Below, one piece after another: positions 7,490-21,601 of a DNA stretch of 64,000 nucleotides. The notes under the pieces were generated by a model. That model made no database searches, had not been told where the DNA came from, and worked only from the letters and a program-made list of their open reading frames with translations. This DNA comes from Candidatus Freyarchaeum deiterrae (GTDB lineage Archaea; Asgardarchaeota; Jordiarchaeia; Jordiarchaeales; Jordiarchaeaceae). The position numbers and the translations under genes are program-made. How positions within the stretch are numbered: the first letter of the stretch is position 1; each line of letters starts with the position of its first letter. Where the stretch lies: NCBI GenBank assembly GCA_037305845.1, contig CP147778.1, forward strand, positions 1,856,001-1,920,000, read 5' to 3'.

Positions 7490-8639
7490 ATGTGGAAACT
7501 AATTCGCCCTGATGCGTATAGAGTTTGGAATGATAGTATTGTTCGAGAAAGGCTTTGGAGATACTACGAGGTATTTAATAACAGACTCAACGCCAAGTTT
7601 TTAATTGCTTTGAAAGTGGGTGCAGATGTGGAACTAGATGCTGAATCGGGTAAGCTCTGGAGTGTACACGATAAAACTAGTGGCATATTCAGAGGCCTCT
7701 TGAAACGTGTTGACACAGGTGAAGTAAAATTAGATGATATGGACTCACCGAAGATTTCTTATTTAGATCTAAAGGTTGAACTTGCCCGTAGAATTCTATC
7801 CGAGTGCCATTTCTGTGAAAGGCGGTGCGGAGCTAACAGATTAGAGGACAAGAAAGGATTTTGTAAATTAGGAAGCGCGTCTTATGTATCCACGGCTTTC
7901 TTGCACACTGGTGAGGAAGCTCCCTTAGTTCCATCCGGCACAAACGCTTAATGAGCATTGCTCTAGCGGTGCATTCTTCTTCTCCAGTTGCACGTTTAAA
8001 TGTGTATTTTGTCAGAACTACGATATTTCAACAAATCCGAAAAGCGGTATTGAAACTTCAGGAGAAAGTCTTGCACGAATAAGTAGAGACTTGAGAAGAG
8101 AGGGTGCAAGAAATGTAAATTATGTGGGCGGGGAGCCAACACCCAATACTTACAACATTTTAAAAGGTATCAGGGAAACCAAAACAAACGTTGCTCAACT
8201 ATGGAATTCTAACATGTACTGCTCTAAAGAATGCATGAAACTTCTGCTAGATGTTATGGATTTTTGGCTTCCAGACTTTAAATATGGAAACGACCAGTGC
8301 GCCGAAAGATTAAGCAAAGTTTCGAATTATTGGGAAATCGTCTCCAGAAACCATAAGATGGCTTACGATGAAACCGTAGAAACCGGAGCGTCAGGTATGA
8401 TCATAAGACACCTAGTTTTACCAAGTCATATCGAATGCTGTACCAAACCGGTTCTTGAGTGGATAGCTAAAAACTGCCCAAAGGCTTTGGTTAATATCAT
8501 GGAACAATATCATCCTACACATGAAGTATCAGGAAACAAGGAGTTCATGGACATAGATAGAAAAGTCACTCATGAAGAGATGGAAGAGGCGTACAGGACC
8601 GCTGATGAATTGGGAATTATCTGGCAACCTGTATCTTAA
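7490..8639 (+). CDS. PflX-like radical SAM protein, spliced: join(7490..7943,7975..8639), 372 aa
   Basis: After removing a 31-nt BHB intron it reads HTGEEAPLVPSGT-I-FFSSCTFKCVFCQNYDIS (CxxxCxxC), then VGGEPTP and LPDFKYGN. Confidence 0.88.
7944..7974 (+). other. 31-nt BHB intron in the PflX-like gene
   Basis: GCAC-AA^A ... GTGC-AT^T; inner stems CGCT/AGCG and GAGC/GCTC; removal repairs the frameshift and stop. Confidence 0.88.
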
Positions 8640-14140: not shown

Positions 14141-15451
14141 TTATACCTCATTGAATTGCATAATTTTTAGATTTACGGGTTTCTTTGTAATGTTTTCCTG
14201 TCGCACACCTAAAATGTATTCCGCACCTTTTTCTTGGGATATGTCCACTAACCTCTGAGTTATTATGCCGTCAAGAATAATGGCTTTCACCGAGTTCATT
14301 TCTTTCAGACTCTCTGCCAGTGAAGATACTTCTATTTCTTTGATTAACTCGAAGTTCTCCCCCAAAAGTACAGCTTTATTAGAAGAGGGAATACCTGACA
14401 AATGGCTCAAAATTTGCTCAGGAAGTTTAGGTTTCGGAGGGGCTTCCACCTTTTTATATCTCTTTACCTCTTTTTCTCTTTCTTTTCCCTTTTCTTTTTC
14501 CTTCTCTTTTTCTTTTTCTCTTTCTTTTCCCTTTTCTTTTTCCTTCTCTTTTTCTTTTTCTCTTTCTTTTCCCTTTTCTTTTTCCTTCTCTTTTTCTCTT
14601 TCCCTTTCCTTCTTTTTAGGTTCTTCTGATTCTTCTTGTTCTATAGGCAGTTTATTTCTTAATGCTTTAACCACTTCTTTTTGGCTGAGCTCTTCGACTT
14701 CTCTGCCTGGAGGGGCACGAGCTATGTAAGCTATGTCCGCTATTTGTTGGAGTTCTTTTAGAATCAAGTCTCCTCCCCTATCTCCATCTAGAAATGCTGT
14801 AATTGATTTTTTCTTACTGAGCTCAGTTACAGTCTTTGGTACACTCGTACCTTCAACTGCTACCACGTTCTTATAACCACATCTCAAAAGATTAAGAACA
14901 TCAGCTCTTCCCTCTACAATTATTATGTCATCAGAGGCATCAATACTCGGTCCAGCAGGCAGCTCTTCAGGACCGTATTTCTCGATTTCAGCGACTCGAA
15001 CAGCGTCCATAACCTCATCAGTGATCTGTTGGCTTTCAGGTGACACGTCTTCGGACCATTTTCGAATAATATCCGCCGCTCTTTCTACAATCTTCTTCCT
15101 TTTAACCTCACGAACATCTTCGATTATCTCTAGAGTTGCATGAGCTGTACAGGGTCCGACTCTATCCACGGTTTCCAGCGCAGCAGCTAACATCGCTGTC
15201 TCCACTTTATCCAAACTTGAGGGAATTATCACCGTTCCAGTTGATTTACCCGCTTTTGATTCTATGGTCACTCTTATTCTGCCTATCCGACCCGTTCTCT
15301 GAAGCTCACGTAGATCAAGCTCAGCTCCCAATAAACCTTCAGTCTGTCCAAAAACAGCTCCAACCACATCTGGTTTTTCAACCACACCGTCTACATCTAC
15401 TTTAGCTTTTATAATATATTTTGTCGTGCTAAATTCATTCTTATTAACCAT
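14141..15451 (-). CDS. dnaG: Archaeal DnaG-like primase / exosome-associated protein
   Basis: [32 protein letters not shown] and DGDRGG. Confidence 0.95.
14471..14596. repeat. Three perfect 42-bp tandem copies encoding a Lys/Glu linker in DnaG
   Basis: Unit tttttctctttcttttcccttttctttttccttctctttttc at 14471, 14513 and 14555. Confidence 0.9.
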
Positions 15452-16165: not shown

Positions 16166-17296
16166 TCACCGTGTTACTATTGCCTTTTTTAAGGCTTCAA
16201 GAAGGTCGTGTGCTTCATTGTTTTCTTCAAAATGCCTCCTAACATTTTCCAATAGATTAATGAGCGCCTCCGCAGTGGCTTGCTTCAAATCCATGGGATG
16301 AAGATTACCACCAGCATAAGCTGATTTCAATTCGTCAAAACTCGTAAAGTCCACAGGCCCTCCGAATTTCTCCTTACGTTCCACATGAAGCTTAGAACCA
16401 TCTCTCGAAAGAAGGAGAAGCCTATTTATCTCGATTATCGGATTAAACTCCAACTGTTTCGGTGGGCAAAAAGCCGCTCCAATCTTCGCCCTTATATCCT
16501 CCGGCGTATCATGGATAAAAACAGCGGTCTGAGGCTTAGATTTCGACATCTTAGCCTCCATTAAAGCATCCTCATCCTCCTCCTCTCCCCCCTTTTTAAC
16601 ATCCATTCGTGATAAGCCCTGCAAACCAATCAGAAGAGGTGTATGAATAGCCACAGGCTTCCAATCCAAACCCAACTTGGGAGCCAACTCCCTAGCAAGT
16701 ACATGAGCCCTCCTCTGATCAGTTCCCCCCAAACACAACTTAAAACCAGAATACAAAATATCAGCAACCTGAATACAAGGATAAAGCGTTTTAGAATAAT
16801 CAGACTCCGCCTCATCCACCTTACGGCCCATAATACTCATAGCCCTCTTAACACGAGCAAGAGTAATATTCTTAGCAACATTAATCACCGTCCCCCAATA
16901 ATCCAAATCATCCATAAGATCCTCTGCTCTCTCAAACTGAACCCTCCCAGTATCTATACCCAGCGACTCCAAACAGTGCTCAATGTACCTCGCACACATG
17001 TGAATAGTATCCATGTCTCCACCAAACTTGTCATTAATCTTAGCATGCCAAGTTGCCTCGAGAACATGCACATCAGCATCAGCCAGAACCAAATCCTGAA
17101 GCTTCCAAGCCCAAACCACCCAACCTATATGAAATATTCTGGAACCATTAGGACAACTAAAGGCTTATCCAGAAGGCTCAACACCAATATAGGCTTTAGG
17201 ATGGCTTTCAACCTCAAACAAACTCTGCAAATCCTCAACCGTAACAACCTCATCCAAGCCACGCGAAACCATCTGAACCTTTTCCTCAGTATCCAT
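16166..17296 (-). CDS. tyrS: Tyrosine-tRNA ligase, spliced: complement(join(16166..17136,17167..17296)), 366 aa
   Basis: YIGVEPSG-L-FHIGW restored by removing a 30-nt BHB intron; YPCIQVADI, GGTDQRRAH, KMSKS; GGAGG upstream of ATG 17296. Confidence 0.93.
17137..17166 (-). other. 30-nt BHB intron in tyrS
   Basis: mRNA sense CTGG-AT^A-AGCC...GGTT-CCAG-AA^T; creates an in-frame TAA if unspliced. Confidence 0.9.
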
Positions 17297-17563
17297 CAGT
17301 AATTCCTCCAAATCAATATTTAATATAACCAAAACGCAAACATCATCAACAACAACGCACAATCAAATATCTGCAAAAAATAATAATAAAACCGTAATTA
17401 AAACTTTCCCAAAGTAAGTACAAACATCGAAAAATAGAAACCCAAAGTTAAACCCTCCACAAATATTCCAAAACAACGCATTTTTTTTCAATTCAATTAT
17501 AATTCAAAATTTCGTGGTGTTCAAATACCATTTTTTAAAGAAAATAGAATGAGATGATATAAA

Positions 17564-17905
17564 TTGGATCCATACTGGTTTATGTACGACCCCCTCACCC
17601 AAAGCCTGCTCAATATCATCTTCGGAATAGTCCTAATAGTCGGAATAGGTCTACTCGTCATGAACATAGTAAAACTGGCAACCTCTCACCAACGCATGGG
17701 ACCCACCATAGGTCTGATTCTAAGCTTACTCATCATCGGACTATCAGCCTCATGGCAATCCGTCCTACCCATAATCGCACAAACCATGGGAGGAGTGGTA
17801 CAATACCTCTCAATCTACCTCTACACACTCATCTACCAATGGATAGCACAACACACAACCACAACAACCGCCACAGCACTCCTACTACTACCACTACTAC
17901 TATAA
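17564..17905 (+). CDS. Small multi-pass membrane protein of unknown function
   Basis: 113-aa ORF with about 3-4 hydrophobic segments. Confidence 0.55.
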   Translation: MDPYWFMYDPLTQSLLNIIFGIVLIVGIGLLVMNIVKLATSHQRMGPTIGLILSLLIIGLSASWQSVLPIIAQTMGGVVQYLSIYLYTLIYQWIAQHTTTTTATALLLLPLLL

Positions 17906-17996
17906 TCAAAAACCAACGCAAAGCTAGCGATGGAAAATAACCGGTTCTCTATCCTAATAAAATAAAAAAGCGTTAAATTCATGAATATCCCAAAAG

Positions 17997-18064
17997 CCTA
18001 AAAAACACAAACAGAGCAAAGCAAAAAAACCACCAACAAACAGTAAATAAAAATAGTAAAATCA
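17997..18064. repeat. 68-bp imperfect direct repeat, copy 1
   Basis: cctaaaaaacacaaacaga.caaagcaaaaa...aacaaaca.taaataaaaa.agtaaaatca matches 19884-19951. Confidence 0.8.
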
Positions 18065-18439
18065 AATAATGCAACGAAAAACCCACACCATCCTCAAATA
18101 CACACCTCATTCTTTATCCCGCTCTTCCACAGAGAAAAAACCAAACAAAAGAGTATAAACCCCAGCTTGCATAATCCCCCAATTCACACAAGCTCTCCTT
18201 ACCCCCAACAAAAAAGAATCCGATAAAACAAAAAGAGAAAAGCCAATAACTAATAATTCAAACTTCCCATCCCTGTCACTATTATCGAACCCATCAACCA
18301 CCACAGAGAAATAAAAGAGACAAAAAACAATATATCAACCCGTTATACTTCTCCACATTCCCTCCCATCAAGCAAAACAAGACATAAAAAAATTTATAAG
18401 ACGCCTCATCGCCCTAAACAAAAGAGAGGCGGAAAAAGG

Positions 18440-19816
18440 ATGAAACTCCCAAAAGAAAATACAAACAATAAAAAGTCGAAAGCAGGGACACCACCCGCAC
18501 CACCGACATCACCCGCGGCAGGGACACCACCCGCACCACCGACACCCCTCGAAGGAAATCTAACCTTCGAAGCAAAGACACCCCCCGCAGCAACGCCAAC
18601 CCCCGAAGCAAAATCAATAATGGACGGTTATTCCGAAGAAGATAAAAAGTTAATAGAATTAATAATAGAAGTATATTCCCAAAATTTTATAGAAAAATTT
18701 CCTAAAAGAAAGAAGGAGGAGGAGGAGAGGGAGAAGAAGAAGTTAACGGAGGAGGAGAAGGAGGAGGCGAAGGGGAAGATCGAAACACTATTACTTATAT
18801 TGAGAGAGGAGGAGGAAGAGCAGGAGAAGAAGCAGAAGGAAAAGGAGGAGGAGAGGGAGAAAAAGAAGTTAACGAAGAAGCAGAAGGAGGAGGAGAAGCA
18901 GAAGGAGAAGGAGAAGGAGGAGGAAATGAAATCTCCACTGCGTGGACTTGCTTTGCTCTTTTTAGACTACGAAAAAGTCGAAAAGAAATATTTGCCCAAA
19001 CAAGAAAAAATAGAAGAAATAACGGGTAAAGGGGGACAAGAGGGGAAAGATCTCTATGAGTATATAAAAAATGAAATTTATGGAATCACAATTCATAAAC
19101 TAATATTAAAAATTTATGATCAGCGTCTCGAGAGAGTAACTGAAAGAAAGGAAAGAATCAATAAGAAATTGGACGAAATGGAAGACAAGAGTTACGGTTG
19201 GGTTGCTAAAAATTCCAAGAGATTATTTTGGATCGGTGTAGCTATTGTTTTTTCATCTATACTTATACCCTTAGGAGTTTGGATTTTATCCTCTTGGACA
19301 TTTTGGCAATTACTTAGTACTATTCCAGTATACGCACTAATTGCAACATCCACATCAACACCAGCAATATACACAACATTACCTGCAATAATCACATCAT
19401 TACCCTGGCAACAATTAAATAACACATCCCTAATCTCAGGAGGAATAGGCGGAACAGTAGGCCTAAGCACTATAATTACAACCTTGATTAAAGGAGCATT
19501 CCAAGAAATAAAGAGCGCCTCATTAGACAGAGTCCAAGTTACACTACTCCAAGATGCGTATCGTGACAAAATCAGGAAGATAACAATACAACTAGAACGA
19601 GATCTATACGATATAGTTGAAGAGAATCCGGCAAAGAAGAAAACGGAAGAGGAGAAAAACAATCAATGGAAGTATTTCTTTGATGTGGAAAAAAAATTTT
19701 ATCAAGATGAAGCTCAAATATATGAAGAATTAGCAAACGATCTACAAAAATACGTCGAAGGCATTATAAAAACCGAAAAGAGTAACAACAAAGATAGTAA
19801 CAACCAAAAAGAGTAG
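18440..19816 (+). CDS. Hypothetical membrane protein with Pro/Thr and Glu/Lys low-complexity repeats
   Basis: 458-aa ORF, AGTPPAPPT x2, KEEEREKKKLT x2, 2-3 TM segments; GAGGCGG upstream. Confidence 0.6.
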   Translation: MKLPKENTNNKKSKAGTPPAPPTSPAAGTPPAPPTPLEGNLTFEAKTPPAATPTPEAKSIMDGYSEEDKKLIELIIEVYSQNFIEKFPKRKKEEEEREKKKLTEEEKEEAKGKIETLLLILREEEEEQEKKQKEKEEEREKKKLTKKQKEEEKQKEKEKEEEMKSPLRGLALLFLDYEKVEKKYLPKQEKIEEITGKGGQEGKDLYEYIKNEIYGITIHKLILKIYDQRLERVTERKERINKKLDEMEDKSYGWVAKNSKRLFWIGVAIVFSSILIPLGVWILSSWTFWQLLSTIPVYALIATSTSTPAIYTTLPAIITSLPWQQLNNTSLISGGIGGTVGLSTIITTLIKGAFQEIKSASLDRVQVTLLQDAYRDKIRKITIQLERDLYDIVEENPAKKKTEEEKNNQWKYFFDVEKKFYQDEAQIYEELANDLQKYVEGIIKTEKSNNKDSNNQKE

Positions 19817-19883
19817 TAACAACGCAAATAATAGCAAAAAAGAGAACAGACAGAGAAACAAAATACACGCTCAACAACCAAAC

Positions 19884-19951
19884 CCTAAAAAACACAAACA
19901 GAACAAAGCAAAAACACCAACAACAAACAATAAATAAAAACAGTAAAATCA
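19884..19951. repeat. 68-bp imperfect direct repeat, copy 2 (T-rich on minus strand, just downstream of ahcY)
   Basis: Matches 17997-18064. Confidence 0.8.
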
Positions 19952-19984: not shown

Positions 19985-21601
19985 TCAGGTACCCTCAGCC
20001 CAACCATGAATATACGCATCCTGCTCTGGAGTCAGAACATCCAACTTAAGACCCATAGCCGCGCACTTTAATTGAGCCACAGTATTATCAATCGCTTCGG
20101 GAATATCCAAAACAACACTGCCCATCTTAGACAAAGACTCCCTGTTCTTGACAATATACTCTACCGCCAAAGCTTGGTCTGAGAAGCTCATGTCCATAAC
20201 CTTACCAGCCACATGCATAGTAAAAACTCCCAAAGGTGTTGGTTTATTGTGGGATGACATTTTTTGATTTGACTCAGTATCCCTCTGCTTAACACTTCTA
20301 CATAATGGTGTTAAGGGAGAACTAGAAATACTGGTCCACAATCCGCCACCACAGCAAGTTCACACATCTAGAAGTTTTAATTAAACATGTGGTCACTGGG
20401 GTGCCCCTCTGCACAAGCTAGATTCACAAGTCTGCCTTGTCCGAGTAGGTAAATTTTTCTTCCGTCTTTCATTGTGTATTCGTCGACTAGTGGTCTCAAC
20501 TCTCGTTTGCTGACACTGAGTTTCTCTAGGTCCGGTATGTTTATTTCGACATTGAAGTGCCCAGTGTTACAAATTGTCGCCCCGTTTTTGAACTTCTTCA
20601 TATGCTCTGCGTTAACCACGTTTTTACAGCCCGTAGCTGTGACGAAGATGTCGCCTACCTCAGCGGCTTCTATCATGGGCATCACATCGAATCCCTCAAG
20701 TGCAGCCGTTAGCGCTCTGTGTGGGCTAATCTCGCAGATGATAACTCTTCTGGCGCCTAGTCCCTTGGCTCTTATCGCTACGCCTCTACCGCAATGACCA
20801 AAACCAGCGACTACAAAAACTTTACCTGCTATAAGATCCGCTGTTGCTCTTAGTATGCCGTCGATGGTGCTTTGTCCGGTTCCCCACAGGTTATCAAATT
20901 TGGGCGCAAACACTTCAGCGTTTACGTTTCCCATTTTGTGGGGGTGTCGTTAGTGGCTAAAATCGGATAGAGTAATACATTATCTTTGGCCATAGCCCTC
21001 AACCGAACAATTCCGGCCATATGTTTAATAAAAACTCTCAGGGGCATTAATGATTTAACATATGGATTCCGGTCGTGGTTTCTTCGGCTCCGGCCCATAC
21101 GGTGTCTGCCCAGTCTTTTTTTTCTCCTAGGATTTTTTTGACTATTTTTATTTCTTCTCCTGTTTCTCCTCTTTTCAGTTTGATGAGTGTTGATACCAGG
21201 TCGGCGCCGTCGTCCAGAGTAATGTTGGGTTTCGCTTTGATTACGTTGGCTATTGCTCTGTAGTAGCCTTCGTGGTCCATTCCTTTCCAGCCGTAGGTGG
21301 ATATGCCTTCTTTTACCAGAGCTGCGACGACGTGGTCCTGTGTTGATAGTGGATTAGAAGCGCATAGGTAGACCTCAGCGCCGCCTGCTTTCAGGGTTTT
21401 CGCGAGCACCGCGGTCTCCTTGGTTAAGTGGAGGCATGCTCCCACTTTCACGTTTTTGAGTGGTTTCTCTTTGGTGAATCTTTGTTTTACTTGCATGAGT
21501 ACCGGCATGTGTGCTTCTGCCCATTCTATTGTGCTCTGTCCGCTTGGCGCCAATTTCATGTCTTTGACTTCGTATTTTTCTCCTTTTTCTGTTTGTGACA
21601 T
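19985..21601 (-). CDS. ahcY: S-adenosylhomocysteine hydrolase, four exons: complement(join(19985..20202,20394..20898,20928..21010,21067..21601)), 446 aa
   Basis: Spliced product has [75 protein letters not shown]; exons total 1341 nt. Confidence 0.93.
20203..20393 (-). other. 191-nt BHB intron 3 of ahcY
   Basis: CCAG-TG^A-CCACATG...CATGTGG-CTGG-TA^A; restores GHPSEVMD. Confidence 0.88.
20899..20927 (-). other. 29-nt BHB intron 2 of ahcY
   Basis: TGGG-AA^A-CGTAAACGC-TGAA-GTGTTTGCG-CCCA-AA^T; restores KWEFDN. Confidence 0.9.
21011..21066 (-). other. 56-nt BHB intron 1 of ahcY
   Basis: CCGG-AA^T-CCATATGTT...AACATATGG-CCGG-AA^T; restores ETTTGIVRL. Confidence 0.9.

What the first reader, a model, noticed from the sequence alone, without database searches (positions are those of the whole stretch)
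17137..17166. Intron inside the HIGH-motif region of tyrosyl-tRNA synthetase
The 30-nt insert creates a TAA straight after EPSG. The BHB (CTGG/CCAG, bulges AT^A and AA^T) joins T+TA (Leu), giving EPSGLFHIGW. TyrRS is essential, so if this is the only copy, splicing must occur in vivo. It would also tie synthetase supply to tRNA-splicing capacity.
Basis: partly seen in the sequence, partly recalled or inferred. Interest (0 to 1): 0.88.

Follow-up and report, generated by a model that had tools for sequence, protein, structure and literature searches.

The report
tRNA-type mini-intron splits Asgard tyrS
The only tyrosyl-tRNA synthetase gene of this Asgard archaeon is broken next to its active-site motif by a conserved 30-base hairpin of the kind archaea cut out of tRNAs, so the enzyme can most likely be made only if its mRNA is spliced; in the papers I found, such splicing is confirmed for just one archaeal protein gene (cbf5).

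Summary
Observation confirmed. The single-copy tyrS (minus strand, 17296-16166) carries a 30-nt insert (17137-17166) that stops translation after 43 codons. It folds as a bulge-helix-bulge (CTGG/CCAG, bulges AT^A and AA^T), and cutting at the standard positions restores a 366-aa TyrRS.

The insert sits at the same site in 28 contigs of this Jord-/Freyarchaeia lineage: 12 distinct sequences of 30, 31 or 32 nt, both helices always kept, junction codon always Leu. That excludes assembly error and stop readthrough. Other Asgard tyrS genes examined lack it.

The genome encodes a two-subunit splicing endonuclease with the crenarchaeal broad-specificity loop, plus RtcB. tyrS is not alone: ahcY has three such inserts (two exactly absent in congeners), a radical-SAM gene has one, and cbf5 has one at the crenarchaeal position. 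A tyrS-specific regulatory role is therefore unsupported.

Caveats: the exon-side helix is weak, and the splice-ready fold is not the lowest-energy one. This scan noted the same tyrS intron before in other genomes. Verdict: new variant of the cbf5-type archaeal mRNA intron.

The parts
17305..17309 (-). Shine-Dalgarno-like GGAGG, 8 nt before the ATG
   Evidence: sequence; function inferred
17167..17296 (-). tyrS exon 1 (43 codons plus the first base of the Leu codon); unspliced it gives a 43-aa peptide ending EPSG
   Evidence: the equivalent peptide of relatives is annotated 'hypothetical protein' in NCBI
17137..17166 (-). 30-nt BHB intron; its first two bases complete the in-frame TAA
17169..17172 (-). 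5' strand of the central 4-bp helix (CTGG, exon 1; Ser-Gly codons fixed as TCT GGA)
   Evidence: invariant in 12 of 12 distinct variants; intronless Asgard use varied codons
17166..17168 (-). 5' bulge AT^A (5' splice site)
   Evidence: AC^A in variants with a CTA junction
17143..17165 (-). inner intron hairpin (AGCC/GGTT base, TTAG/CTAA tip); the tip varies in length and sequence among relatives
17139..17142 (-). 3' strand of the central helix (CCAG, intron)
   Evidence: invariant
17136..17138 (-). 3' bulge AA^T (3' splice site)
   Evidence: AG^T in one variant (L125)
16166..17136 (-). tyrS exon 2 (holds HIGW and KMSKS); ORF callers start it at GTG 17119, after the HIGH motif
   Evidence: NF006330 match begins at profile position 50
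21011..21066 (-). ahcY BHB intron, 56 nt, exactly absent in five congeners (same system)
20899..20927 (-). ahcY BHB intron, 29 nt, shared by congeners at 27-30 nt (same system)
20203..20393 (-). ahcY BHB intron, 191 nt, exactly absent in five congeners (same system)
7944..7974 (+). BHB intron, 31 nt, in a radical-SAM (PflX-like) gene; insert present with a changed loop in three congeners (same system)

Best explanation
A short archaeal intron in the tyrS mRNA, removed by proteins. The transcript forms a bulge-helix-bulge. The two-subunit splicing endonuclease (EndA alpha with a CSL-type loop, plus beta) cuts after the second base of each bulge (17167/17166 and 17137/17136). RtcB joins the exons, making the Leu codon and a 366-aa TyrRS; unspliced mRNA yields only a 43-aa peptide. 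Shown: the insert, its fold potential, its conservation, single copy, presence of the enzymes. Inferred: cleavage, ligation, the (alpha-beta)2 assembly, and translation of the spliced product. The intron was probably gained once in the ancestor of this genus-level lineage and is one of many tolerated mRNA introns in a genome with very active tRNA splicing.
For: Single tyrS in a closed 3.58-Mb genome. Exact 10-residue gap against 2cya. 28 contigs with 12 distinct introns (six of 30 nt, five of 31, one of 32); all keep 4/4 central and 4/4 inner pairs, and the junction codon is always TTA or CTA. Both helices are 100% paired on an alignment, against 15-53% overall when partners are slid. In a protein search all relatives at 78% identity or more are truncated (336 aa or less), while nearly all at 58% or less are full length (the one short hit checked, P0099, starts at a contig end). 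Other Asgard tyrS genes are uninterrupted. EndA alpha keeps the A. pernix triad Y125/H133/K164 and the CSL lysine K44 (roles from PMC3241643); beta subunit and RtcB are present. Same-system examples: two ahcY inserts absent to the base in five congeners; 4 of 14 clean indels against a congener sit on a BHB (null mean 0.28, max 3); cbf5 has an intron splitting the catalytic Asp codon after its first base, the position given for crenarchaeal cbf5 (PMC2738675). The likely source genome has introns in 92-95% of its tRNAs (PMC11291895).
Against: The splice-ready fold is 1.7-4.6 kcal/mol above the minimum-energy fold, in which the 3' bulge pairs back on the exon. A register shifted inward by one base would give an unproductive product, though it is 1.3-2.1 kcal/mol less stable than the productive one. 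The exon-side helix is only 1 bp. There is no two-sided covariation in the core helices, because they never or hardly vary.
Confidence: 0.9

Rival explanations
1. Translational bypass: the ribosome takes off at GGA before the stop and hairpin, lands on AGA at the end of the insert and resumes, giving EPSG-I-FH without any splicing.
For: A GGA codon followed by a stop and a hairpin resembles T4 gene 60 (own knowledge). Take-off and landing codons match at 2 of 3 bases, and Ile is tolerated at this position in one Asgard ortholog.
Against: The landing codon mismatches at position 1. Three variants have CAA, not a stop, after GGA. The base before the insert varies only between T and C, as Leu requires. 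In sister inserts a hop gives the wrong residue: Asn for the catalytic Asp of Cbf5, and Lys for the Glu that intronless congeners have in AhcY.
Confidence: 0.04
2. tyrS is a dead or split gene, and tyrosylation is supplied otherwise (unassembled copy, or two half proteins).
For: Both pieces are called as separate ORFs in databases.
Against: The genome is closed and has no other TyrRS. Both exons stay open and about 80% identical across the genus. The downstream ORF has no ATG/GTG/TTG start before HIGW, so a split protein would lack the motif.
Confidence: 0.02
3. The insert is excised from the DNA in part of the population rather than from the RNA.
For: Hairpin ends; none of my tests looked at raw DNA reads.
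Against: All 28 contigs carry the insert, and no full-length close relative exists among the proteins searched. The ends match the EndA cut rule exactly.
Confidence: 0.02
4. Stop-codon readthrough giving a 10-residue insertion, or an assembly error.
For: In this genome the insert is 30 nt, in frame, with one stop.
Against: Half of the variants are 31 or 32 nt, others hold three stops. The same sequence is in three other assemblies. A 10-residue insert would sit in the ATP-binding loop.
Confidence: 0.01

Closest known systems
cbf5 pre-mRNA intron of Crenarchaeota (Desulfurococcales, Sulfolobales; Watanabe 2002, Yoshinari 2006, Yokobori 2009 PMC2738675)
   Same: Short (16-44 nt in cbf5), ORF-less, often relaxed BHB, phase-1 insertion near catalytic residues, host with a two-subunit EndA, mis-annotated as split or frameshifted genes.
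   Different: Different gene (an essential aminoacyl-tRNA synthetase) and an Asgard host; one of many mRNA introns in the genome, not a single case; splicing not yet shown on RNA.
Non-canonical BHB tRNA introns of Freyarchaeia and Atabeyarchaeia (PMC11291895; bioRxiv 10.64898/2026.10.13.758758)
   Same: Same lineage, size range, motif and predicted enzyme; recent lineage-specific gains.
   Different: Located in mRNA. Word searches of those two papers showed tRNA introns only. No similar copy of this intron was found in the genome at up to 7 mismatches.
Archaeal rRNA introns (BHB, often with a homing endonuclease)
   Same: BHB ends, removal by EndA.
   Different: No ORF, 30 nt, mRNA host.
HAC1/XBP1 non-spliceosomal mRNA splicing in eukaryotes (own knowledge)
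   Same: A short frame-changing mRNA intron removed by a protein nuclease and joined by a tRNA ligase (RtcB in animals).
   Different: Cut by Ire1 at two stem-loops, not at a BHB, and stress-regulated; no evidence of regulation here.

Membership tests
Archaeal BHB (EndA-spliced) intron | 4-bp central helix between two 3-nt bulges on opposite strands | tested here: met
   CTGG/CCAG, 4/4 pairs in all 12 variants
Archaeal BHB (EndA-spliced) intron | Cuts after the second base of each bulge restore the host product | tested here: met
   366-aa TyrRS with a Leu junction; exact 10-aa gap against 2cya; holds for 30-, 31- and 32-nt variants
Archaeal BHB (EndA-spliced) intron | Intron-side helix (h') | tested here: met
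   4/4 pairs in all variants, with one-sided changes kept paired
Archaeal BHB (EndA-spliced) intron | Exon-side helix (h) next to the motif; needed only for the strict hBHBh' form | tested here: inconclusive
   One U-A pair plus a distal 5-bp helix, 93% paired; relaxed motifs are common in cbf5 introns (PMC2738675)
Archaeal BHB (EndA-spliced) intron | Host encodes EndA able to cut relaxed motifs, and a ligase | tested here: met
   Alpha with catalytic triad and CSL lysine, beta subunit, RtcB; subunit assembly and activity not tested
Archaeal BHB (EndA-spliced) intron | Spliced RNA or excised circular intron seen in vivo; cleavage in vitro | not testable with these tools
Translational bypass element (gene 60/byp type) | Matched take-off and landing codons | tested here: not met
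   GGA versus AGA; sister inserts give wrong residues
Translational bypass element (gene 60/byp type) | Stop codon right after take-off | tested here: inconclusive
   TAA in 9 variants, CAA in 3
Group I/II self-splicing intron | Catalytic RNA core of hundreds of bases | tested here: not met
   30-32 nt single hairpin
Archaeal tyrosine--tRNA ligase (PRK08560) | Family score over cut-off, HIGH-type and KMSKS motifs | tested here: met
   346 bits against cut-off 220 for exon 2 alone; motifs complete only after splicing

The most novel reading that the evidence does not exclude
This Asgard lineage splices its mRNAs routinely with the tRNA endonuclease and ligase: at least about 15 and probably several dozen housekeeping genes, including the only tyrS, need splicing, and new introns are still being gained between species. 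That would be a gene-architecture system with many mRNA introns but no spliceosome, in close prokaryotic relatives of eukaryotes.
Probability: 0.75. Interest if true: 0.88.

Novelty: new variant of a known kind. Interest (0 to 1): 0.76.

Why it matters
In the literature searched, archaeal mRNA splicing is confirmed only for cbf5, and a 2009 paper called for tools to find more (PMC2738675); I found no report of a tyrS intron or of mRNA introns in Asgard archaea, but the library lacks most subscription papers. An obligatory intron in a single-copy essential enzyme gives a clean test, and metatranscriptomes of the likely source soil exist (PMC11291895). Introns present in one species and absent to the base in its sisters (ahcY) make the open question of how BHB introns arrive testable in protein genes, where frame gives exact boundaries. 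Practically, TyrRS of this lineage is truncated in the databases searched, and its first exon is annotated as a hypothetical protein.

Tried and rejected
2. A genome-wide BHB scan scored only by ORF fusion was swamped by chance (9852 true cuts against 10050 and 9778 for shifted cuts). Adding A-rich bulges and a coding model gave 24 against 8-10, and 14 against 2-4. This supports an excess of about 15 but is a weak lower bound, and the A filter was chosen after seeing examples.
3. A census of introns shared with a congener was badly designed: removal of ordinary coding DNA passed the filter (474 against 446-460). Uninformative, discarded.
4. No similar copy of the intron elsewhere in the genome, so no donor was found. 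ARAGORN found only 17 tRNA genes, several doubtful, so tRNA introns were not catalogued.
5. Covariation tests give no two-sided change in the core helices; the pairs are nearly invariant.
6. P0099, a short distant homolog, is just a contig end.
7. A search with the 43-aa exon-1 peptide found only this lineage; it is too insensitive to test earlier notes on Bathyarchaeia or Aenigmatarchaeota tyrS introns, which remain untested here.
8. The sigma-70 promoter scan is not meaningful for an archaeon.
9. Literature searches found no report of this intron.

Full report
Source. The window lies in a single-contig genome of 3,576,204 bp. Same-genus records are titled Jordarchaeum madagascariense, Jordarchaeia QZM_A3 and RPF2, and Freyarchaeota SQRJ_82. 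The size fits the complete 3.58-Mbp genome of Ca. Freyarchaeum deiterrae, in which 92-95% of tRNA genes were reported to carry introns (PMC11291895). The species name is my inference.

Observation. On the minus strand an ATG at 17296, with GGAGG 8 nt upstream, opens 43 codons that end in EPSG and TAA. ORF calling restarts at GTG 17119, after HIGW. The 30 nt at 17166-17137 form a bulge-helix-bulge: central helix CTGG/CCAG, bulges AT^A and AA^T, and an inner hairpin. Removing them at the standard EndA positions gives a 366-aa protein reading EPSGLFHIGW. The read-through sequence differs from A. pernix TyrRS (2cya) by exactly a 10-residue insertion here. The break splits the Leu codon two residues before the first His of the HIGH-type motif.

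Single copy. tblastn gives one hit. PF00579 finds this gene and one other, which is TrpRS. TyrRS is essential (established knowledge), so the cell must obtain full-length protein from this interrupted gene.

Conservation. All five congeners in the genome set have the insert at the same site. Adding metagenome, Logan, ENA and NCBI contigs gives 28 contigs and 12 distinct insert sequences: six of 30 nt, five of 31 and one of 32. These contigs are related and not independent events. Every variant keeps 4/4 central and 4/4 inner pairs; only the hairpin tip changes. The joined codon is always TTA or CTA. The Ser-Gly codons that form the helix are fixed as TCT GGA, while intronless Asgard use many synonyms. 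Three Logan assemblies reproduce the window's sequence exactly. In a protein search, every relative at 78% identity or more is truncated (336 aa or less) and nearly all more distant ones are 350-390 aa. Among other Asgard, 23 loci read by eye are uninterrupted. In a 400-genome search, the 150 listed matches show internal stops only in this genus and in one unexamined genome with a single TGA; 190 matches were not listed. The simplest history is one gain in the ancestor of this lineage; I built no tree.

Structure, with caveats. On six variants both core helices are 100% paired, against 15-53% overall for slid partners, but there is no two-sided covariation in them. The exon-side helix is one U-A pair plus a distal 5-bp helix, so the motif is relaxed. 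Computed folding favours an alternative in which the 3' bulge pairs back on the exon; the splice-ready fold is 1.7-4.6 kcal/mol higher, and a register shifted inward by one base, which would be unproductive, is a further 1.3-2.1 kcal/mol higher. Enzyme binding would have to select the productive fold, and splicing may be incomplete; this is inference.

Machinery. Two EndA-family genes are present. One matches the A. pernix alpha subunit (3p1z, E 8e-43) and keeps the residues aligned to Y125, H133, K164 and the Crenarchaea-specific-loop K44. That loop confers cleavage of relaxed and non-standard introns (PMC3241643). The other lacks the catalytic His motif and looks like a structural beta subunit. 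RtcB is present. This is the enzyme type linked to cbf5 mRNA splicing (PMC2738675).

It is one of many. ahcY has three BHB inserts; removing them restores one reading frame. The 56-nt and 191-nt ones are absent to the base in five congeners, and the 29-nt one is shared at 27-30 nt. A radical-SAM gene has a 31-nt insert shared with three congeners. A motif-free comparison of 187 kb with one congener found 14 clean indels, 4 of them on a BHB in a coding frame, against a shuffled mean of 0.28 and maximum of 3. A strict genome scan with a coding model gave 24 frame-restoring candidates against 8-10 for shifted cuts, including tyrS, two ahcY introns and candidates that I recognise by motif as cbf5, gatE, alba and pcm. 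The cbf5 insert splits the catalytic Asp codon after its first base, as in Crenarchaeota (PMC2738675), and 13 of 30 Asgard cbf5 loci have it. I estimate at least about 15 and probably several dozen mRNA introns, but have no exact count; one census attempt failed.

Rivals. Readthrough and assembly error fall to the 31- and 32-nt variants and the independent assemblies. A dead or split gene is unlikely given the intact exons and the lack of a start before HIGW. Ribosome hopping from GGA to AGA is the only serious alternative for tyrS alone, but three variants have no stop at take-off, and in sister inserts a hop would put Asn for the catalytic Asp of Cbf5 and Lys for a conserved Glu of AhcY.

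What is missing. Splicing is inferred at about 0.9.

Comparison and novelty. It works like the crenarchaeal cbf5 pre-mRNA intron and meets the sequence-level tests of an archaeal BHB intron; the in vivo test is open. As of PMC2738675, splicing was confirmed for no other archaeal protein gene, though putative introns had been predicted. Word searches in the Freyarchaeia genome paper and a 2026 preprint on Asgard tRNA introns showed tRNA introns only. My searches found no report of a tyrS intron, within a library that lacks most subscription papers. Earlier notes of this scan report the same tyrS intron in other Jord-/Freyarchaeia genomes and similar ones in Bathyarchaeia and Aenigmatarchaeota; those notes are not independent evidence, and I did not test the non-Asgard ones. 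Verdict: real, a new variant of a known kind, interest 0.76.

Noticed in passing
G000:C1:1483415-1483446 (L091); loci L082, L088-L093, L095, L098, L100, L101, L103, L106: cbf5 carries a 26-41-nt BHB intron splitting the catalytic Asp codon (G|AT) in 13 of 30 Asgard loci from several families, the same position as the crenarchaeal cbf5 intron. Shared ancestry or repeated gain is open.
   Followed up: partly
window 20203-20393, 20899-20927, 21011-21066 (minus): Three BHB introns in ahcY; two are species-specific gains or sister losses. The 191-nt one overlaps a called 118-aa ORF, and the 56-nt one is flanked by a 7-nt direct repeat that follows from a palindromic central helix.
   Followed up: yes
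window 7944-7974 (plus): 31-nt BHB intron in a radical-SAM (PflX-like) gene, shared with three congeners.
   Followed up: partly
G000:C1 about 1452820-1452830 region (L036), minus: rtcB has a frame-shifting 29-nt hairpin insert between Pro-Asp and Ala-His-Gln-Gly-Tyr-Gly. It failed my strict motif test (central helix imperfect), so it would be a relaxed motif; the ligase might depend on its own product.
   Followed up: partly
G000:C1:2244134-2244165, 1472160-1472189, 1125569-1125598, 2285374-2285405, 1589354-1589381, 735531-735558: Further strong BHB candidates from my scan, in genes recognised by motif only as pcm, gatE, alba, an EndoQ-like nuclease, a PorA-like subunit and an unassigned gene.
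   Followed up: no
L052 and L058 (G003); G000:C1 near 2434696: Introns present in only one of two congeners: a 29-nt BHB in the P-loop of an ArsA/Get3-like gene and a 31-nt one in G003, and a 31-nt one in G000.
   Followed up: partly
G000:C1:1920679-1921314 (L031): The EndA alpha gene lies 0.7 kb beyond the window's end and has a Crenarchaea-specific-loop-like segment with the key lysine.
   Followed up: partly
window 14400-14620 (minus, dnaG-like ORF 14141-15451): A Lys/Glu-rich repeat insertion of variable length relative to a congener.
   Followed up: no
window 17400-19950: About 2.5 kb between tyrS and ahcY (small membrane ORF 17564-17905, low-complexity 458-aa ORF 18440-19816) is missing in congeners, where the two genes are near neighbours.
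   Followed up: no
G078:C55:4520-4942; G034:C1:2075968-2076297: Other Asgard tyrS-like matches with a single internal TGA; not examined.
   Followed up: no
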